The position numbers and the translations under genes are program-made. A stretch of DNA of 24,516 bases from a virus (lineage: Duplodnaviria > Heunggongvirae > Uroviricota > Caudoviricetes): IMG/VR virus record IMGVR_UViG_2609460332_000001; one strand, 5' to 3'. Position 1 is the stretch's first letter, and each line of letters begins with the position of its first letter. Positions 119 through 3,308 of the stretch are shown here, piece by piece. The notes beneath the pieces are model-generated. The model worked only from the letters and a program-made list of their open reading frames with translations, did no database searches and was not told where the DNA came from.

Positions 119-334
119 ATGTACCAGATGGAAAAAATCACAACAGGTGTGTCATACACCACGTCAGCGGTGGGAACGGGCTACTGGTTCCTGCAGTTGC
201 TGGACAGGGTTTCCCCGTCTCAGTGGGCGGCAATAGGCGTGCTGGGGAGTCTGCTGTTTGGGCTGCTGACATATCTGACTAACCTGTATTTCAAAATCAG
301 AGAGGACCGTCGTAAGGCGGCACGGGGAGAGTAA
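119..334 (+). CDS. S: class II holin, phage 21 S (pinholin) family, 71 aa
   Basis: [15 protein letters not shown]...[51 protein letters not shown] closely resembles recalled S21; two TMDs; two in-frame Met codons (M1, M4) like a dual-start motif; GGGAGACGGGG RBS. The ORF-track start at 17 runs through the upstream terminator and is rejected. Confidence 0.85.
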
Positions 335-338
335 TTCA

Positions 339-683
339 ATGACTCAAAACTATGAACTGATTGTGAAAGGGATCCGCAATTTTGAGAATAAAGTTACGGT
401 AACTTTAGCGTTACGGGACAAAAAACGCTTTGACGGTGAAATTTTTGACCTGGACATCTCGCTGGACCGTGTTGAAGGTGCCGCGCTGGAGTTTTATGAG
501 GCAGCAGCCAGAAGGAGCATCAGACAGGTCTTCCTGGATGTTGCTGCCGGGTTATGTGAAGGGGATGAGCAGTCGCCGGAAAAGCGCCCCGTAATTTTAG
601 AGGCGCAGGATGTGTTGATAACCTACAGAGGAAAACTACCGGGAATAATTACGGGTTCTCTGAAGAGTCCGCCGAAATGGTAA
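339..683 (+). CDS. hypothetical protein between holin and endolysin, possibly YdfR/DUF1327-like
   Basis: 114-aa ORF starting 5 nt after the holin stop; same position as ydfR between essQ and rrrQ in E. coli Qin prophage (recalled synteny, family not verified). Confidence 0.55.
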   Translation: MTQNYELIVKGIRNFENKVTVTLALRDKKRFDGEIFDLDISLDRVEGAALEFYEAAARRSIRQVFLDVAAGLCEGDEQSPEKRPVILEAQDVLITYRGKLPGIITGSLKSPPKW

Positions 684-921
684 TTTTACCAGCATATTTT
701 TCATCCAGTAATACAGCAAGCCGCCTGAAAGAGTCTTGTTGTTCCTGAGACCATTTGGGATTGCATGATTCAAACTGGATTGATGCCAGCGTTGATTGCA
801 TCTGTTCCCTTGGAATTGAGAATGCCAGATATGAGAAGGCGACGGTAAGGGTATTCACGTCTTCCCGAAGCCTGGAAATGCTGTCGAGCAACTCCTGTAG
901 AGAAATGGTGTTATTGTCCAT
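649..921 (-). CDS. hypothetical protein, 90 aa, antisense within the lysis cassette
   Basis: Minus-strand ORF with AGGA-N7-ATG RBS and a TACAAT -10-like element upstream; overlaps the 3' end of 339..683 by 35 nt; helical-looking composition; no recognised family. Confidence 0.35.
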   Translation of the reverse strand: MDNNTISLQELLDSISRLREDVNTLTVAFSYLAFSIPREQMQSTLASIQFESCNPKWSQEQQDSFRRLAVLLDEKYAGKITISADSSENP

Positions 922-1026
922 AAATAATCCTCATGATTGTATTGACCTGTTAGCAGCCTGAGGCAACAGGCTGGAACTGATAAACATATCCAGGGCTCAG
1001 AAACCGATAAATCCTGATAAATATCC

Positions 1027-1560
1027 ATGAACGCAAAAATCAGATACGGCCTGTCGGCTGCCGTTCTGGCGCTGATTGCCGCTGGTGCGCCTGCGCCTGA
1101 CATTCTCGACCAGTTTCTGGATGAAAAGGAAGGTAACCACACCACGGCATACCGTGATGGCGCGGGTATCTGGACCATCTGCCGCGGTGCCATCCTGGTG
1201 GATGGCAAACCTGTCGTTCCGGGCATGAAGTTGTCGAAGGAAAAATGCGACCGGGTTAACGCCATTGAGCGTGATAAGGCGCTGGCATGGGTGGAGAAAA
1301 ACATCAAAGTGCCATTGACCGAACCCCAGAAAGCGGGGATCGCGTCATTCTGTCCGTACAACATTGGTCCCGGTAAGTGTTTCCCGTCGACGTTTTACAG
1401 ACGAATTAATGCAGGTGATCGCAGGGGAGCATGCGAAGCGATTCGCTGGTGGATTAAGGACGGTGGCAGAGACTGCCGTATTCGCTCAAATAACTGTTAC
1501 GGTCAGGTATTCCGTCGTGACCAGGAGAGCGCGCTGGCGTGCTGGGGAATCGACAGATAA
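1027..1560 (+). CDS. R: SAR endolysin (T4-lysozyme-like muramidase with N-terminal signal-anchor-release domain)
   Basis: N-terminal Gly/Ala-rich weakly hydrophobic segment YGLSAAVLALIAAGAPAP followed by the E-x8-D-x5-T catalytic motif (EGNHTTAYRDGAGIWT); paired with a pinholin-type S. Confidence 0.9.
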   Translation: MNAKIRYGLSAAVLALIAAGAPAPDILDQFLDEKEGNHTTAYRDGAGIWTICRGAILVDGKPVVPGMKLSKEKCDRVNAIERDKALAWVEKNIKVPLTEPQKAGIASFCPYNIGPGKCFPSTFYRRINAGDRRGACEAIRWWIKDGGRDCRIRSNNCYGQVFRRDQESALACWGIDR

Positions 1561-1652
1561 GCAGAATATTTTGCTGAAAAATGAGGTTGGCCAACGCGGG
1601 CGGATAACACGAAGTCCTGTGAACTGGCAAAACCTAAGTGAATAAAAGTAAA

Positions 1653-1689
1653 AACCCCGTTTGTTGGCAGCAAGCGGGGTTTTGTTTTT
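1653..1689 (+). terminator. intrinsic terminator downstream of endolysin
   Basis: AACCCCGTTTG / CAAGCGGGGTT stem (one mismatch), 7-nt loop, followed by TTGTTTTTA. Confidence 0.55.
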
Positions 1690-1715
1690 ATGGCAGTAAG
1701 CTATGGGAGGCTGCC

Positions 1716-1850
1716 TTGATTGATTTTAGCAAACTGATTAGGGAGTTGCGACTCATGATTAGTCAATTACCAAACTGGAAATTTTTGCTGGTCTGGAGCA
1801 TCCCTTTTTTATGGGTAGTATCCCAGTTAATTGTGGCAATTAAGGGGTAG
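1716..1850 (+). CDS. small hydrophobic peptide P1 (31 aa from ATG 1755, or 44 aa from TTG 1716)
   Basis: ...MISQLPNWKFLLVWSIPFLWVVSQLIVAIKG, one predicted TM helix; GGGAGG 5 nt upstream of in-frame TTG 1716; GGGAG 9 nt upstream of ATG 1755. Confidence 0.3.
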   Translation: MIDFSKLIRELRLMISQLPNWKFLLVWSIPFLWVVSQLIVAIKG

Positions 1851-1852
1851 CT

Positions 1853-1984
1853 ATGTCAGACAAACTCATAACGCCGGCAAAGGTCCTGTGTGTGATTGTC
1901 GGTATTTCATTTTCACTAATGCTGGTTGCTCTTTTTCTGTCCCTCGCCTGGGTGATGTTGTCTTCGTCGGGGCTGCTGGGGTGA
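1853..1984 (+). CDS. small hydrophobic peptide P2, 43 aa
   Basis: MSDKLITPAKVLCVIVGISFSLMLVALFLSLAWVMLSSSGLLG; strong RBS AAGGGG 5 nt upstream of ATG; starts 2 nt after the P1 stop; below the ORF-track length cutoff. Confidence 0.4.
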   Translation: MSDKLITPAKVLCVIVGISFSLMLVALFLSLAWVMLSSSGLLG

Positions 1985-2103
1985 CAGTGACTGATGACAT
2001 CAGCAGAGCGCTGGCTTTTGCTATTAAGTGGGTGGCTGTTGGTATTGCTGTGTCTCCGATGCTGTATGGGCTGGCAAAACTGGTCATTGCGCTGAAATCG
2101 TGA
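1981..2103 (+). CDS. small hydrophobic peptide P3, about 40 aa (GTG start overlapping P2 stop as GTGA)
   Basis: (M)TVTDDISRALAFAIKWVAVGIAVSPMLYGLAKLVIALKS; C-terminal part of ORF 1831..2103; shares the motif RA(L/M)AFAI(K/R)xVA(V/I) with P4. Confidence 0.3.
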   Translation: MTVTDDISRALAFAIKWVAVGIAVSPMLYGLAKLVIALKS

Positions 2104-2114
2104 ACTTTAAAAAG

Positions 2115-2201
2115 ATGAGTGCTGAACTTATTCGGGCAATGGCATTTGCCATTCGTATTGTGGCCATTGCTGTTCTGGTCTGGGCAATCCGTTGGTGGTG
2201 A
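2115..2201 (+). CDS. small hydrophobic peptide P4, 28 aa, paralog of P3
   Basis: [28 protein letters not shown]; stop TGA ends 1 nt before the Rz ATG; weak RBS. Confidence 0.3.
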
Positions 2202-2202
2202 T

Positions 2203-2697
2203 ATGAACCGTGTTCTGTGTGTGGTGATTATTGTCATGCTGGTAGCCTGTGGTGTGCTTAGTCTGGGGCTGAATCATTACCGCGATAACGCCATCACCTA
2301 CAAAGCGCAGCGCGATAAAAAAGTCAGTGAGCTGAAACTGGCGAATGCCACTATTACTGACATGCAGCAGCGCCAGCGAGATGTCGCTGCGCTTGATGCC
2401 AGATACACGAAGGAATTAGCCGATGCGAGAGCTGAAAATGAAACTCTGCGCGCTGATGTTGCCGCTGGTCGTAAGCGCCTGCGGGTCAACGCCACCTGCC
2501 CCGGTACCGTGCGTGAAGCCACCGGCACCTCCAGCGTGGATAATGCAACCGGCCCCCGACTGGCAGACACCGCTGAACGGGATTATTTCATCCTCAGAGA
2601 ACGGTTGATGACAATGCAGAAGCAGCTGGAAGGGGCGCAGGAATATATCCGCACTCAGTGCACTAAGCTGGCTTTTTATTATCCGGAGGATACATGA
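2203..2697 (+). CDS. Rz: i-spanin Rz
   Basis: [40 protein letters not shown]... closely matches recalled lambda Rz (N-terminal TMD, coiled-coil periplasmic domain). Start at ATG 2203 rather than ORF-track 2119. Confidence 0.9.
2423..2608 (+). CDS. Rz1: o-spanin Rz1 lipoprotein, embedded in the +1 frame of Rz
   Basis: [25 protein letters not shown]...[32 protein letters not shown]: lipobox LVVSAC and Pro-rich body, as lambda Rz1; wholly inside Rz. Confidence 0.85.
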
Positions 2698-2909
2698 AGA
2701 AATTACGGGTAACCGTAGAACCTTTTCAGGGAACAATTCCGTTCCGTATTTTGCAGCGTGGTCGTGTTCTTGTTGAAGGTTCGTTCAGTGGTAAATGTAC
2801 GCAATTACACTCCCGGACCTTTCAGGTGAATGCCACGAATGAAGAGCTAACCGTGGAGTGTACGATGAATGCCGCTAAATGCCGCATGGTATTACAGCCA
2901 GTGTGTTGA
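2694..2909 (+). CDS. hypothetical protein, 71 aa, translationally coupled to Rz
   Basis: ATGA start/stop overlap with Rz; [37 protein letters not shown]...; no recognised family. Confidence 0.4.
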
Positions 2910-3107
2910 GCGACCTTATTATCCATGCGCGGTATTGTCGCCGTATTCCTGCATTAACAGAGACCGCAGCCCGACAGGGAGACTCCTCTGCGCGAGTGTG
3001 CGGGGATAATCAAAAACGATACACACCGGGGTTTACCGCGTTAACGGAGCGCGGCGTTGTCCCCTCATAGTCGCCTGTCCGGTGCGATGGTGGAAGAAAC
3101 CGAACGT

Positions 3108-3308
3108 TCATTTCTCGTTATTTGTCATGCTGGCCGGGCGCAGATGCGTTGCATCTGTTGCCAGCCTTCTCCTGCAGGCTTCAATAACCCACGCTGAAAA
3201 GTTACCGGACCCTTTATGCTCAAGGGCGATGTTGATCTGTTCAATTATGTGATTGGGGAAACGGATATTGCGGGTTGTGGTTCTGCGGGTCCGGTTTTTC
3301 GATGACAT
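3108..3308 (-). CDS. ribbon-helix-helix (Arc/MetJ/CopG-type) DNA-binding protein, 66 aa
   Basis: MSSKNRTRRTTTRNIRFPNHIIEQINIALEHKGSGNFSAWVIEACRRRL... fits the RHH pattern (beta strand RNIRFP, then two helices); RBS AAGGA 7 nt upstream of ATG at 3308; only convincing minus-strand gene in the late operon. ORF track extends to 3368, but the internal start has the RBS. Confidence 0.6.
   Translation of the reverse strand: MSSKNRTRRTTTRNIRFPNHIIEQINIALEHKGSGNFSAWVIEACRRRLATDATHLRPASMTNNEK

What the first reader, a model, noticed from the sequence alone, without database searches (positions are those of the whole stretch)
339..921. Two extra genes inside the lysis cassette, convergent and overlapping
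Between holin and endolysin lie a 114-aa plus-strand ORF (position-equivalent to ydfR in Qin prophage, function unknown) and a 90-aa minus-strand ORF that overlaps its 3' end by 35 nt and has its own promoter-like and RBS signals. The intergenic stretch 684-1026 is AT-rich. Convergent overlap implies possible antisense interference during late transcription; the minus-strand gene would be expressed against the direction of the late operon, as morons usually are.
Basis: partly seen in the sequence, partly recalled or inferred. Interest (0 to 1): 0.45.

Follow-up and report, generated by a model that had tools for sequence, protein, structure and literature searches.

The report
Antisense moron pair inside lysis cassette
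Between the holin and lysozyme genes of this E. coli prophage sit two real small genes that face each other and overlap by 35 bases; both are of unknown function, and the backward-facing one looks like a self-contained add-on gene ("moron"), a kind of element long known in such phages.

Summary
Plus-strand 339-683 encodes a 114-aa YdfR/DUF1327 protein. Minus-strand 649-921 encodes a 90-aa acidic helical protein (PHROG 2411, RefSeq WP_000369850.1). They overlap by 35 nt, and 684-1026 is 43% GC against 56% for the window.

The minus-strand frame is the selected one. It is open in all 15 distinct alleles, down to 59% identity in Citrobacter, with dN/dS of 0.11-0.36 and conservative replacements. 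The rival plus ORF 755-961 is a wobble-sharing shadow frame.

Compared with K-12 Qin, the YdfR tail plus the antisense gene form a ~470-nt inserted cassette. Relatives of the 90-aa gene always lie antisense inside late operons, usually convergent with a late-strand partner. HK022 gp22/gp23 and ES18 genes 24/25, annotated morons, have the same layout.

The sequence upstream of the 90-aa gene is a degenerate copy of a conserved promoter-plus-structured-leader cassette. I found that cassette in over 120 viral contigs, in front of at least 21 unrelated small-ORF families, and it is absent from Rfam.

Function is unknown. The best reading is a prophage-expressed moron silenced by late transcription, possibly a defence/counter-defence pair like Tab/anti-Tab. 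Expression was not tested.

The parts
119..334 (+). Class II (P21 S-type) holin; upstream context gene of the late operon
   Evidence: Pfam PF04971 E=9e-33. PGAP annotates it as 'class II holin family protein'.
339..683 (+). YdfR-family (DUF1327) gene, 114 aa, on the late-operon strand
   Evidence: Pfam PF07041 E=7e-43 and phrog_406 E=4e-68. It is 63% identical to K-12 Qin YdfR. AF2 model: three strands plus a long helix for residues 5-73, with a low-confidence tail.
545..683 (+). Cassette-linked C-terminal tail of YdfR. Homology to Qin ydfR ends near codon 70. The tail ends in the motif ITGSLKSPPKW (648-680).
   Evidence: DNA alignment with Qin and L085. The tail motif h-x-G-[SD]-[LI]-x-x-P recurs in otherwise unrelated partner ORFs of phrog_2411 genes, with synonymous codon changes.
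649..921 (-). 90-aa gene: acidic (pI 4.5), soluble, predicted four-helix protein of PHROG 2411; the antisense moron gene
   Evidence: phrog_2411 E=1e-58. 62 homologous clusters. dN/dS 0.11-0.36 with no stops in 15 alleles. AF2 model of four helices, pLDDT 66. PGAP CDS WP_000369850.1.
649..683 (.). 35-nt convergent 3' overlap of the two genes
   Evidence: Convergent overlaps of 7-35 nt recur in relatives, and 57 of 63 cassette-driven genes have such a partner.
580..606 (-). Weak terminator-like hairpin (GCGCCUC...GGGGCGC followed by UUUU) 45-70 nt beyond the minus-gene stop, inside ydfR
   Evidence: RNA fold. It is below the scan's threshold, and its conservation is confounded by ydfR coding. 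Tentative.
928..932 (-). Shine-Dalgarno GAGGA, 7 nt before the ATG at 921
   Evidence: Read from the sequence. Conserved as GAGGA or AAGGA in diverged loci.
946..973 (-). 5'-leader hairpin (CCUGUU..AACAGG, or CAGCC..GGCUG); reduced counterpart of the cassette leader
   Evidence: Fold. Positional match to the hairpin-1 / UCAGCC-GGCUGA elements of the canonical cassette.
969..1023 (-). Promoter-like module homologous to the conserved moron cassette (ATCAGG...CCCTGGATATGTT; -10-like TATGTT at 988..983). It abuts the lysozyme start codon.
   Evidence: nhmmer profile of 82 cassettes: window 1023-969 (-), E=0.046. Equivalent hits in L088, L107, L002 and L102. CCCTGGATATGTT is conserved in all E. coli alleles.
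755..961 (+). Rejected: 68-aa plus-strand ORF, a shadow frame of the 90-aa gene
   Evidence: It shares the wobble position with the true frame. It has stops at different places in L085 and L003, radical replacements (mean BLOSUM -0.6 to -1.2) and no family hit.
1027..1560 (+). Phage lysozyme (endolysin), the next late-operon gene; divergent from the 90-aa gene
   Evidence: Pfam PF00959 E=9e-24. PGAP annotates it as 'lysozyme'.

Best explanation
The ~470-nt stretch from about 545 to about 1020 is an inserted accessory cassette (a moron) in a P21/Qin-type lysis cassette. It contributes two things.

1. A minus-strand transcription unit. It consists of a promoter-like module (about 1023-969), a short structured leader, an RBS and a 90-aa acidic helical cytoplasmic protein.
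2. The last ~45 codons of the late-strand ydfR gene, which run convergently into the 3' end of the 90-aa gene.

Inferred mechanism: in the lysogen, late transcripts stop at tR', so only the minus-strand gene is transcribed, from its own promoter, and its small protein acts by binding another protein. After induction, Q-antiterminated late transcription runs antisense through the whole 90-aa gene. That shuts the gene off by promoter occlusion, polymerase collision and duplex RNA, while the same transcript makes YdfR. The layout therefore works as a lysogeny-ON / lytic-OFF switch.

Shown: gene reality, the insertion, the conserved antisense and convergent layout, and homology of the upstream region to a widespread cassette. 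Inferred: promoter activity, timing of expression, interference, and binding.
For: Coding:
- dN/dS is 0.11-0.36.
- There are no stops in 15 distinct alleles, down to 59% amino-acid identity.
- Variable sites by codon position are 37/29/66.
- Replacements are conservative.
- The gene belongs to PHROG 2411 and is annotated by PGAP.

Insertion:
- Qin has essQ-ydfR-rrrQ with no gap.
- L104 has holin-YdfR116-lysozyme.
- DNA homology with Qin breaks at ydfR codon ~70 and resumes at the lysozyme RBS.
- GC is 43% against 56% for the window.

Layout conserved across contexts:
- upstream of a lambda-type holin in Citrobacter;
- between tail genes M and L;
- upstream of terminase;
- beside a different lysis module in phiSTEC1575.

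In every one of these the gene is antisense to the late genes. In most there is a convergent partner overlapping by 7-35 nt.

Promoter and leader:
- The upstream region matches a cassette profile.
- That cassette precedes the annotated morons HK022 gp23 and ES18 gene 25.
- The cassette is antisense to its flanking long ORFs by 75,452 aa to 7,135 aa.

Literature precedents:
- Morons are defined as independent transcription units with differing GC (PMC3594210).
- Antisense accessory genes with their own TSS are expressed in lysogens (PMC7067206).
- Q expression lowers the antisense TaiEcA protein in phi80 (PMC11364771).
Against: - No expression data exist for this gene.
- The consensus sigma-70 scan finds no promoter upstream of 921.
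- The cassette match in the window is marginal (E=0.046). It covers only the promoter part; the canonical hairpin 1, hairpin 2 and opposite-strand terminator are missing.
- The candidate terminator is weak.
- Frameshifted alleles are fairly common, so the gene is dispensable in many lysogens.
- Some family members are chromosomal or island-borne without any late operon around them, so antisense placement is not required for function.
- No fold or family match gives a biochemical handle.
Confidence: 0.62

Rival explanations
1. Defence/counter-defence pair of the Tab/anti-Tab or Tai/Ati type. The 90-aa protein is made constitutively in the lysogen and blocks a late step (lysis, assembly or RNA metabolism) of superinfecting phages. 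The late-strand YdfR, through its cassette-linked C-terminal tail, binds and neutralises it when the resident prophage itself goes lytic.
For: The architecture is that of JBD26. There, Tab is 83 aa, on the minus strand with its own promoter inside the late operon, and anti-Tab lies on the plus strand just upstream and binds Tab (PMC10884400). In phi80, taiEcA is antisense inside the Q operon with the late-strand atiEcA adjacent (PMC11364771).

The partner tail motif h-x-G-[SD]-[LI]-x-x-P co-occurs with phrog_2411 genes on otherwise unrelated partners. It is conserved at protein level with synonymous changes.

The YdfR tail type changes together with the antisense gene type: the 114-aa tail goes with phrog_2411, and the 176/183-aa tail goes with phrog_2572.

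57 of 63 cassette-driven genes have a convergent late-strand partner.
Against: - There is no sequence or profile match to any PADLOC model.
- tblastn of the 90-aa protein against the phage collection found 3 records, none of them phi80. Tab and Tai sequences were not compared directly.
- A 116-aa YdfR with the same tail motif exists without any antisense gene.
- phrog_2411 genes exist with only a dead tail remnant (L085) or alone.
- DUF1327 domains pair with at least three unrelated antisense families, which is awkward for a specific binder unless the tail does the binding.
- No interaction or phenotype data exist.
Confidence: 0.2
2. Lysis-control genes. YdfR and/or the 90-aa protein tune holin or endolysin action, for example as a brake against accidental lysis from leaky late transcription. 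On this view they lie between holin and endolysin for functional reasons.
For: They sit between the holin and the lysozyme, and about a fifth of complete E. coli genomes carry the segment there. A genetic screen linked ydfR to envelope integrity, as cited in PMC13232886.
Against: The same gene family and the same pair layout occur between tail genes, upstream of terminase and upstream of a different holin type. ES18's DUF1327 gene lies between tail genes M and L. Position is therefore not tied to lysis. Qin and L104 cassettes do without the antisense gene. Neither protein has a membrane segment or signal peptide by inspection of the sequences (no predictor was run). Qin YdfR binds the RNase E catalytic domain and possibly RNA, not lysis proteins.
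Confidence: 0.08
3. The functional product is a cis-antisense RNA. On this view the minus-strand transcript acts by pairing with the 3' end of ydfR or with the late mRNA of the resident or an incoming related phage (as STnc6030 does in BTP1), and the 90-aa ORF is secondary.
For: The convergent 3' overlap is conserved in length range. The leader is structured. An asRNA antisense to late genes gives superinfection immunity in BTP1 (PMC7067206).
Against: The ORF is clearly under protein-level purifying selection, with a conserved start, RBS and length across 59-100% identity. Chromosomal and island copies keep the ORF without any antisense target. An RNA role could be additional but not exclusive.
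Confidence: 0.07
4. The minus-strand ORF is a spurious call, and the plus-strand ORF 755-961 (or no ORF) is the real feature of the AT-rich spacer.
For: Raw dN/dS in the plus (shadow) frame is also low (0.16-0.34), and the frame is open in several alleles.
Against: This is the wobble-sharing antisense frame, where low dN/dS is expected. It has stops at different positions in L085 (two) and L003 (mid-ORF). Its amino-acid identity falls faster with distance (0.52 against 0.59). Its replacements are radical (mean BLOSUM -0.6 to -1.2, against about 0). It has no PHROG or Pfam hit, a TTG start and no RBS.
Confidence: 0.02

Closest known systems
HK022 gp22/gp23 and ES18 genes 24/25 (annotated morons in the tail-gene region of lambdoid phages)
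   Same: Both are convergent pairs: a small late-strand ORF and a small antisense ORF inserted between conserved late genes. ES18 gene 24 is a DUF1327 protein like YdfR. Both antisense genes are preceded by the canonical promoter/leader cassette, of which the window holds a degenerate copy.
   Different: They lie between tail genes rather than between holin and lysozyme. Their antisense proteins are not detectably homologous to the 90-aa protein. The window copy lacks the cassette's opposite-strand terminator, hairpin 1 and hairpin 2. None of these genes has a known function.
Tab / anti-Tab of Pseudomonas phage JBD26 (PMC10884400)
   Same: An 83-aa protein is encoded on the minus strand with its own promoter inside the late operon. 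A small plus-strand gene lies just upstream, so the two are convergent. The first is expressed in lysogeny, the second with late genes.
   Different: The host and phage type differ, and the pair lies between terminase genes. Sequences were not compared here. Defence activity and Tab/anti-Tab binding are demonstrated there and are untested here.
TaiEcA / AtiEcA of coliphage phi80 (PMC11364771)
   Same: It is an E. coli lambdoid phage. The defence gene is antisense within the Q-dependent late operon near the lysis genes, with a late-strand counter-defence gene adjacent. Q expression lowers the antisense product.
   Different: TaiEcA is 204 aa, and the pair is divergent (5' ends overlap), lying downstream of Rz/rha. 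tblastn of the 90-aa protein against the phage collection did not hit phi80.
Lambda bor (own knowledge; the L104-L106 loci carry a Bor-family gene in this layout)
   Same: A lysogeny-expressed accessory gene that sits next to the lysis genes and is transcribed against the late operon.
   Different: Bor is a secreted lipoprotein located after Rz. It has no convergent overlapping partner and no similarity to the 90-aa protein.
E. coli K-12 Qin ydfR (P76160)
   Same: The N-terminal ~70 residues are homologous, in the same position after the class II holin. Qin YdfR binds the RNase E N-terminal domain through residues 1-72 and co-purifies with RNA (PMC13232886).
   Different: Qin YdfR is 103 aa with an unrelated C-terminus, and it abuts rrrQ with no antisense gene. 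RNase E binding has not been tested for the 114-aa variant.

Membership tests
Moron (Juhala et al. 2000, as summarised in PMC3594210) | Extra DNA between two genes that are adjacent in related phages | tested here: met
   Qin has essQ-ydfR-rrrQ contiguous. L104 has holin-YdfR116-lysozyme. The alignment shows an insert of about 470 nt.
Moron (Juhala et al. 2000, as summarised in PMC3594210) | Base composition different from the neighbouring genes | tested here: met
   43.4% GC for 684-1026, against 55.7% for the window and 55% for the lysozyme gene.
Moron (Juhala et al. 2000, as summarised in PMC3594210) | Own promoter | tested here: inconclusive
   There is no consensus sigma-70 site. There is a marginal but correctly placed match to the promoter part of a conserved moron cassette (E=0.046; better in sister loci).
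Moron (Juhala et al. 2000, as summarised in PMC3594210) | Own terminator | tested here: inconclusive
   Only a weak hairpin with a U4 run at 606..580. Nothing passes the scan.
Moron (Juhala et al. 2000, as summarised in PMC3594210) | Expressed from the repressed prophage | not testable with these tools
   No transcriptome or proteome data are available. Paper searches for the accessions found nothing.
YdfR / DUF1327 (PF07041) | Profile match above the curated threshold | tested here: met
   145 bits against a cut-off of 25, residues 1-111. phrog_406 matches over its full length.
PHROG 2411 (90-aa family, function unknown) | Full-length profile match | tested here: met
   E=1e-58, positions 1-90 of 90. 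The family is small: 20 representatives at 50% identity among 1.84 billion proteins.
Prophage defence/counter-defence pair (Tab/anti-Tab, Tai/Ati) | Antisense small gene inside the late operon with an adjacent late-strand partner | tested here: met
   Compared with the layouts in PMC10884400 and PMC11364771.
Prophage defence/counter-defence pair (Tab/anti-Tab, Tai/Ati) | Sequence or profile similarity to a known defence protein | tested here: not met
   No PADLOC hit for either protein. tblastn of the 90-aa protein against the phage collection found 3 records, none of them phi80.
Prophage defence/counter-defence pair (Tab/anti-Tab, Tai/Ati) | Protection against superinfecting phage, and binding of the partner to the defence protein | not testable with these tools
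   This needs plaque assays and interaction assays.
Conserved lambdoid moron promoter/leader cassette (defined here) | Opposite-strand terminator, CTG-N9-CAG palindrome, CCCTGGTTAnGT, UCAGCC, 8-bp hairpin, GAUGGCUGAUUA hairpin, then SD | tested here: inconclusive
   The window keeps ATCAGG...CCCTGGATATGTT...CAGCC and a hairpin at the right place, but it lacks the terminator, the canonical hairpin 1 and hairpin 2. It is best described as a degenerate relative.

The most novel reading that the evidence does not exclude
The window's antisense gene may be one cargo of a previously undescribed mobile regulatory cassette of enterobacterial lambdoid phages.

The cassette is about 150 nt. In order, it consists of:
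- a late-strand terminator;
- a CTG-N9-CAG palindrome;
- a promoter;
- a structured 5' leader with UCAGCC/GGCUGA complementarity and two covarying hairpins.

It drives at least 21 unrelated families of 65-99-aa proteins. These are almost always antisense inside late operons and convergent with a small late-strand partner. On this reading, these pairs are a general lysogeny-ON / lytic-OFF format for defence plus self-immunity (Tab/anti-Tab-like), and the leader is a shared post-transcriptional control point.
Probability: 0.25. Interest if true: 0.72.

Novelty: new member of a known kind. Interest (0 to 1): 0.4.

Why it matters
Taken alone, the finding is ordinary. It is an annotated pair of hypothetical prophage genes that fits the moron concept, dated to 2000 in the review I read (PMC3594210).

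It matters in two ways. First, about one in five complete E. coli genomes carries this gene between holin and lysozyme, including ST131 strains, so a lysogeny-expressed product could affect phage susceptibility or lysis of clinical strains. Second, following the gene to its distant relatives exposed a shared promoter/leader cassette and a recurrent 'antisense small gene plus convergent late-strand partner' format. That format matches the two experimentally proven defence/counter-defence layouts (Tab/anti-Tab, Tai/Ati). If it holds, the cassette sequence would be a cheap search handle for dozens of untested candidate defence or host-modifying proteins.

Tried and rejected
- **Function by homology.** The 90-aa protein and its distant relatives gave nothing in Pfam, NCBIfam, PADLOC or PDB sequence profiles. 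The only blip was a chance-level match to anti-silencing Mip (E=0.037).
- **Function by fold.** The AF2 models are of modest confidence (pLDDT 66 for the 90-aa protein, 61 for YdfR). Foldseek against PDB gave no hit below E=0.5.
- **Shadow ORF 755-961.** Rejected as the coding frame.
- **SOS control.** There is no CTGT-N8-ACAG LexA box in the window. The chromosomal homologue next to dinI lies behind dinI's own terminator.
- **Known RNA family for the leader.** Rfam 15 gave no match in the window or in five loci with the canonical cassette.
- **Homology between the antisense genes.** hhalign of phrog_2411 against phrog_2572 gave probability 0.6%. hmmsearch of the 90-aa profile against 69 cassette cargo proteins gave no hit.
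- **Homology between window YdfR and the Citrobacter 238-aa partner.** Not detectable by BLASTP or Pfam. Only the C-terminal motif is shared.
- **General partner tail motif.** The G[SD]L..P tail is specific to partners of phrog_2411 genes. It was found in 0 of 57 partners of other cargo families.
- **Literature.** No paper mentions the RefSeq accessions or the PHROG. DUF1327 appears in one genome paper only.
Full report
**1. What is there**

The first 2.7 kb of the window is a lambdoid lysis cassette. It contains, in order:
- a class II (P21 S-type) holin at 119-334;
- a 114-aa ORF at 339-683;
- a 90-aa ORF on the other strand at 649-921;
- a phage lysozyme at 1027-1560;
- a ~650-nt insert;
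- an Rz-like spanin.

The same stretch occurs at 99.9% identity in E. coli chromosomes, including ST131 strains. There NCBI's PGAP calls both ORFs: 'YdfR family protein' WP_000193278.1 and 'hypothetical protein' WP_000369850.1. The segment 684-1026 is 43.4% GC, against 55.7% for the whole window. About 1053 of 5426 complete E. coli genomes hold at least 80% of it.

**2. Are both ORFs genes?**

The plus ORF is a clear DUF1327/YdfR protein (Pfam E=7e-43; phrog_406).

The minus ORF matches phrog_2411 over its full length (E=1e-58). It has 62 homologous clusters in the large protein collection, from Escherichia, Shigella and E. albertii, plus E. ruysiae and Citrobacter genomes.

I collected 15 distinct DNA alleles and computed Nei-Gojobori dN/dS in all six frames:
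- The minus-ORF frame gives 0.11-0.36.
- It has no stop codon in any allele, including the Citrobacter one at 59% amino-acid identity.
- Variable sites fall 37/29/66 on codon positions 1/2/3.

It therefore also shows low raw dN/dS (0.16-0.34). Other evidence goes against it:
- It carries stops at different places: two in L085 and one mid-ORF in Citrobacter.
- Its identity decays faster (0.52 against 0.59).
- Its replacements are radical (mean BLOSUM62 -0.6 to -1.2, against about 0 in the true frame).
- It has no family match.

A GAGGA or AAGGA Shine-Dalgarno sequence 7-8 nt before the ATG is conserved in all contexts. The minus-strand ORF is the gene. Several frameshifted alleles also exist, so the gene is sometimes lost.

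**3. The two genes form an inserted cassette**

In K-12 Qin, essQ, ydfR (103 aa) and rrrQ are contiguous, and the ydfR stop overlaps the rrrQ start. DNA alignment shows the window is homologous to Qin through ydfR codon ~70. It then diverges and rejoins just before the lysozyme start. The inserted ~470 nt encode a different YdfR C-terminus (ending ITGSLKSPPKW) plus the antisense gene and its upstream region.

At least four states of this slot exist:
- Qin: no tail motif and no antisense gene.
- A 116-aa YdfR with the tail motif and no antisense gene.
- This window: the 114-aa tail plus phrog_2411.
- A 176/183-aa YdfR whose extended tail overlaps a different 86-aa antisense gene, phrog_2572. 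That gene is not detectably related to the 90-aa protein (hhalign probability 0.6%).

In one variant (L085) the DUF1327 N-domain is gone, but the 90-aa gene and a dead remnant of the tail persist. In phiSTEC1575-Stx2k, the holin-ydfR-antisense unit is followed by a different holin/endolysin module.

**4. The family and its contexts**

A profile search of 1.84 billion representative proteins finds only 20 representatives. They include 81-97-aa distant members.

In phage contexts the gene is always antisense to the late genes:
- upstream of a lambda-S-type holin, CHAP endolysin and DUF2514 spanin in Citrobacter;
- between tail genes M and L;
- upstream of terminase.

In eight of nine phage contexts checked, counting the dead remnant in L085, the convergent late-strand ORF overlaps its 3' end by 7-35 nt. 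These partner ORFs have unrelated N-terminal parts: DUF1327, a 238-aa protein, and 60-88-aa coiled coils. They nevertheless end in a shared motif, h-x-G-[SD]-[LI]-x-x-P-x-x-x-stop. The codons of that motif differ synonymously between loci, so the conservation is at protein level.

Other members are stand-alone:
- next to iha;
- next to an AIDA-type autotransporter;
- in the chromosomal run pyrC-dinI-[92 aa]-bssS behind dinI's own terminator.

**5. Upstream region: a degenerate copy of a widespread cassette**

The upstream regions of the distant phage members share a striking sequence.

The consensus, read on the small-gene strand, has these parts in order:
- a rho-independent terminator for the opposite strand (CATAAAAAAAGCCGC...GCGGC);
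- a palindrome-like TACTGTCTGAATATCAGG (CTG-N9-CAG, one base short of LexA-box spacing);
- CCCTGGTTAAGGT (a -10-like TAnnGT);
- UCAGCC;
- an 8-bp hairpin with loop GUGGGA;
- a second hairpin whose loop GAUGGCUGAUUA is complementary to the 5' UCAGCC;
- AAGGA and the start codon.

On a 35-sequence alignment the proposed pairs behave like a real structure:
- 92.5% of cells are paired, against 28-47% when the partners are slid.
- Seven pairs show compensatory changes.
- No shuffle out of 500 reaches the observed score.
- G-U pairs occur only on this strand.
- One distant locus (L231) has a hairpin of entirely different sequence at the same place.

One caveat applies. The search pattern fixed one arm of hairpin 1, and the UCAGCC/GGCUGA pairing is invariant, so it carries no covariation evidence.

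Further properties of the cassette:
- Rfam 15 has no matching family.
- It precedes at least 21 unrelated families of mostly 65-99-aa proteins. Only DUF1883 and an aspartyl-protease-like domain are recognisable among ten representatives, and none matches PADLOC.
- It is overwhelmingly antisense to the flanking long ORFs: 75,452 aa on the opposite strand against 7,135 aa on the same strand.
- 57 of 63 distinct cargo genes have a convergent late-strand partner.

Among annotated phages it lies upstream of HK022 gp23 (convergent with gp22; both labelled 'moron gene product') and of ES18 gene 25 (convergent with gene 24). ES18 gene 24 is itself a DUF1327 protein, and both ES18 genes are labelled 'possible moron' with putative terminators.

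A profile of 82 cassettes hits the window at 1023-969 on the minus strand (E=0.046 for 232 kb searched). That is exactly upstream of the 90-aa gene. It also hits the equivalent place in L088, phiSTEC1575 and L002, and the region upstream of the alternative antisense gene in L102 (E=1.5e-4).

The window copy keeps ATCAGG...CCCTGGATATGTT...CAGCC and a leader hairpin (970..946). It lacks the terminator, the canonical hairpin 1 and hairpin 2. The plain sigma-70 scan finds no site there, so the promoter is inferred from homology, not shown.

**6. What it most likely does**

Neither protein has an informative relative or fold:
- The 90-aa protein is acidic (pI 4.5), soluble, and predicted to form four helices at modest confidence. 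Foldseek and PDB profile searches give nothing.
- YdfR's N-domain is predicted as three strands plus a long helix, with a low-confidence tail and no structural match.

The one experimental datum in the literature is that Qin YdfR binds the catalytic N-terminal half of RNase E through residues 1-72. It also co-purifies with RNA, and it has little effect on the transcriptome or growth when overproduced (PMC13232886).

I commit to the following reading. The cassette is a moron. Its minus-strand gene is transcribed from its own promoter in the lysogen, and its small protein acts by binding. After induction, Q-dependent late transcription runs antisense through the gene and silences it while producing YdfR.

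Published cases support each step in kind:
- Antisense accessory genes with their own TSS are active in lysogens (PMC7067206).
- The 83-aa Tab lies on the minus strand of a late operon, with a plus-strand anti-Tab that binds it (PMC10884400).
- phi80 TaiEcA is antisense inside the Q operon, and its level falls when Q is expressed (PMC11364771).

The layout, the co-variation of YdfR tail type with antisense gene type, and the partner tail motif make a defence/self-immunity pair the most attractive specific hypothesis. It is weakened by tails without antisense genes and antisense genes without partners, and it is untested. A role specific to lysis is unlikely, because the same family and the same pair format occur in tail and terminase regions.

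**7. Novelty and verdict**

Antisense interference remains an inference.

The pair itself is a new, uncharacterised member of a known kind: lambdoid morons, with convergent pairs already annotated in HK022 and ES18. The more interesting by-product is the conserved promoter/leader cassette and the generality of the 'antisense cargo plus convergent late-strand partner' format. I could not find either described in the searchable literature. That search does not cover Juhala et al. 2000 or Casjens et al. 2005, which may mention the sequence similarity.

Noticed in passing
L108-L227 (IMG/VR), L228 1501-1656 (HK022 13978-14128), L229 1492-1650 (ES18), L092 3841-4000, L003 2901-3000; degenerate copy at window 969-1023 (-): A conserved ~150-nt cassette precedes at least 21 unrelated families of 65-99-aa ORFs in enterobacterial lambdoid phages. 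It consists of an opposite-strand terminator, a CTG-N9-CAG palindrome, a promoter-like CCCTGGTTAnGT, and a structured leader with two covarying hairpins and UCAGCC/GGCUGA complementarity. It is almost always antisense to late genes. It is not in Rfam 15 and is unannotated in RefSeq E. coli (224 of 5426 genomes hold it). GGA motifs in the hairpin-1 loop and in the SD suggest possible CsrA control (speculation).
   Followed up: partly
window 1561-2210: A ~650-nt insert lies between lysozyme and Rz; it is absent in E. ruysiae L002. It holds a strong intrinsic terminator right after the lysozyme gene (1651-1683 plus a T-run). After it come three small hydrophobic ORFs (43, 51 and 28 aa; phrog_4906, phrog_3246/1115/4493). 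The last two are paralogous (RA[LM]AFAI[KR].VA motif). All three are annotated as hypothetical proteins by PGAP.
   Followed up: partly
L102 2979-3239 (-) with YdfR 2501-3031 (+): An alternative cassette occupies the same slot. A 176/183-aa YdfR has its extended tail overlapped by 53 nt by an unrelated 86-aa antisense gene (phrog_2572). That gene is also preceded by a partial copy of the conserved cassette, including hairpin 1 (nhmmer E=1.5e-4).
   Followed up: partly
L095 4001-4279; L097 4001-4294: Chromosomal members of the 90-aa family exist outside prophages. One lies in the run pyrC-dinI-[92 aa]-bssS-solA, behind dinI's LexA box and terminator. These suggest a host origin or a host function for the family.
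   Followed up: partly
L090 1446-1718 (-); L230 2501-2770: Intact homologues of the 90-aa gene sit in degraded islands next to virulence-type genes. One is divergent from the siderophore receptor/adhesin iha, among IS remnants. Another is downstream of an AIDA-type autotransporter.
   Followed up: no
A1 rows P0037, P0049, P0051, P0060, P0061: Several database alleles of the 90-aa gene are frameshifted. They switch into the +1 frame after residue ~26-60, and one returns to frame. This may be pseudogenisation or sequencing error. One such allele is named 'ybl58' by a source.
   Followed up: no
L001 526-861 (-), upstream of the holin; L107 3569-3892: An anti-adapter IraM-like gene lies antisense just upstream of the holin, both in the E. 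coli prophage matching the window and in phiSTEC1575-Stx2k. It is another antisense accessory gene in the Q-to-lysis interval.
   Followed up: no
window ~3108-3308 (-) (L001 6110-6310): A YlcI/YnfO-family gene (DUF3950-type) lies antisense downstream of Rz, before an HNH endonuclease and terminase. It is a further antisense small gene in the late region of this window.
   Followed up: no
L085 4238-4321 (-): An Rfam hit to sRNA STnc100 (67 bits, E=1.6e-12, cut at the contig end) lies upstream of the holin in the variant that lacks the DUF1327 N-domain.
   Followed up: no
L003 2859-2876 (-), L084 ~15-40, L092 3856-3873 (-): In distant loci, the cassette's late-strand terminator sits immediately before the next late gene (holin or gpL). 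Non-antiterminated late-strand transcripts would therefore stop after crossing the antisense gene. This may insulate the system, or it may make downstream late genes depend on antitermination.
   Followed up: no
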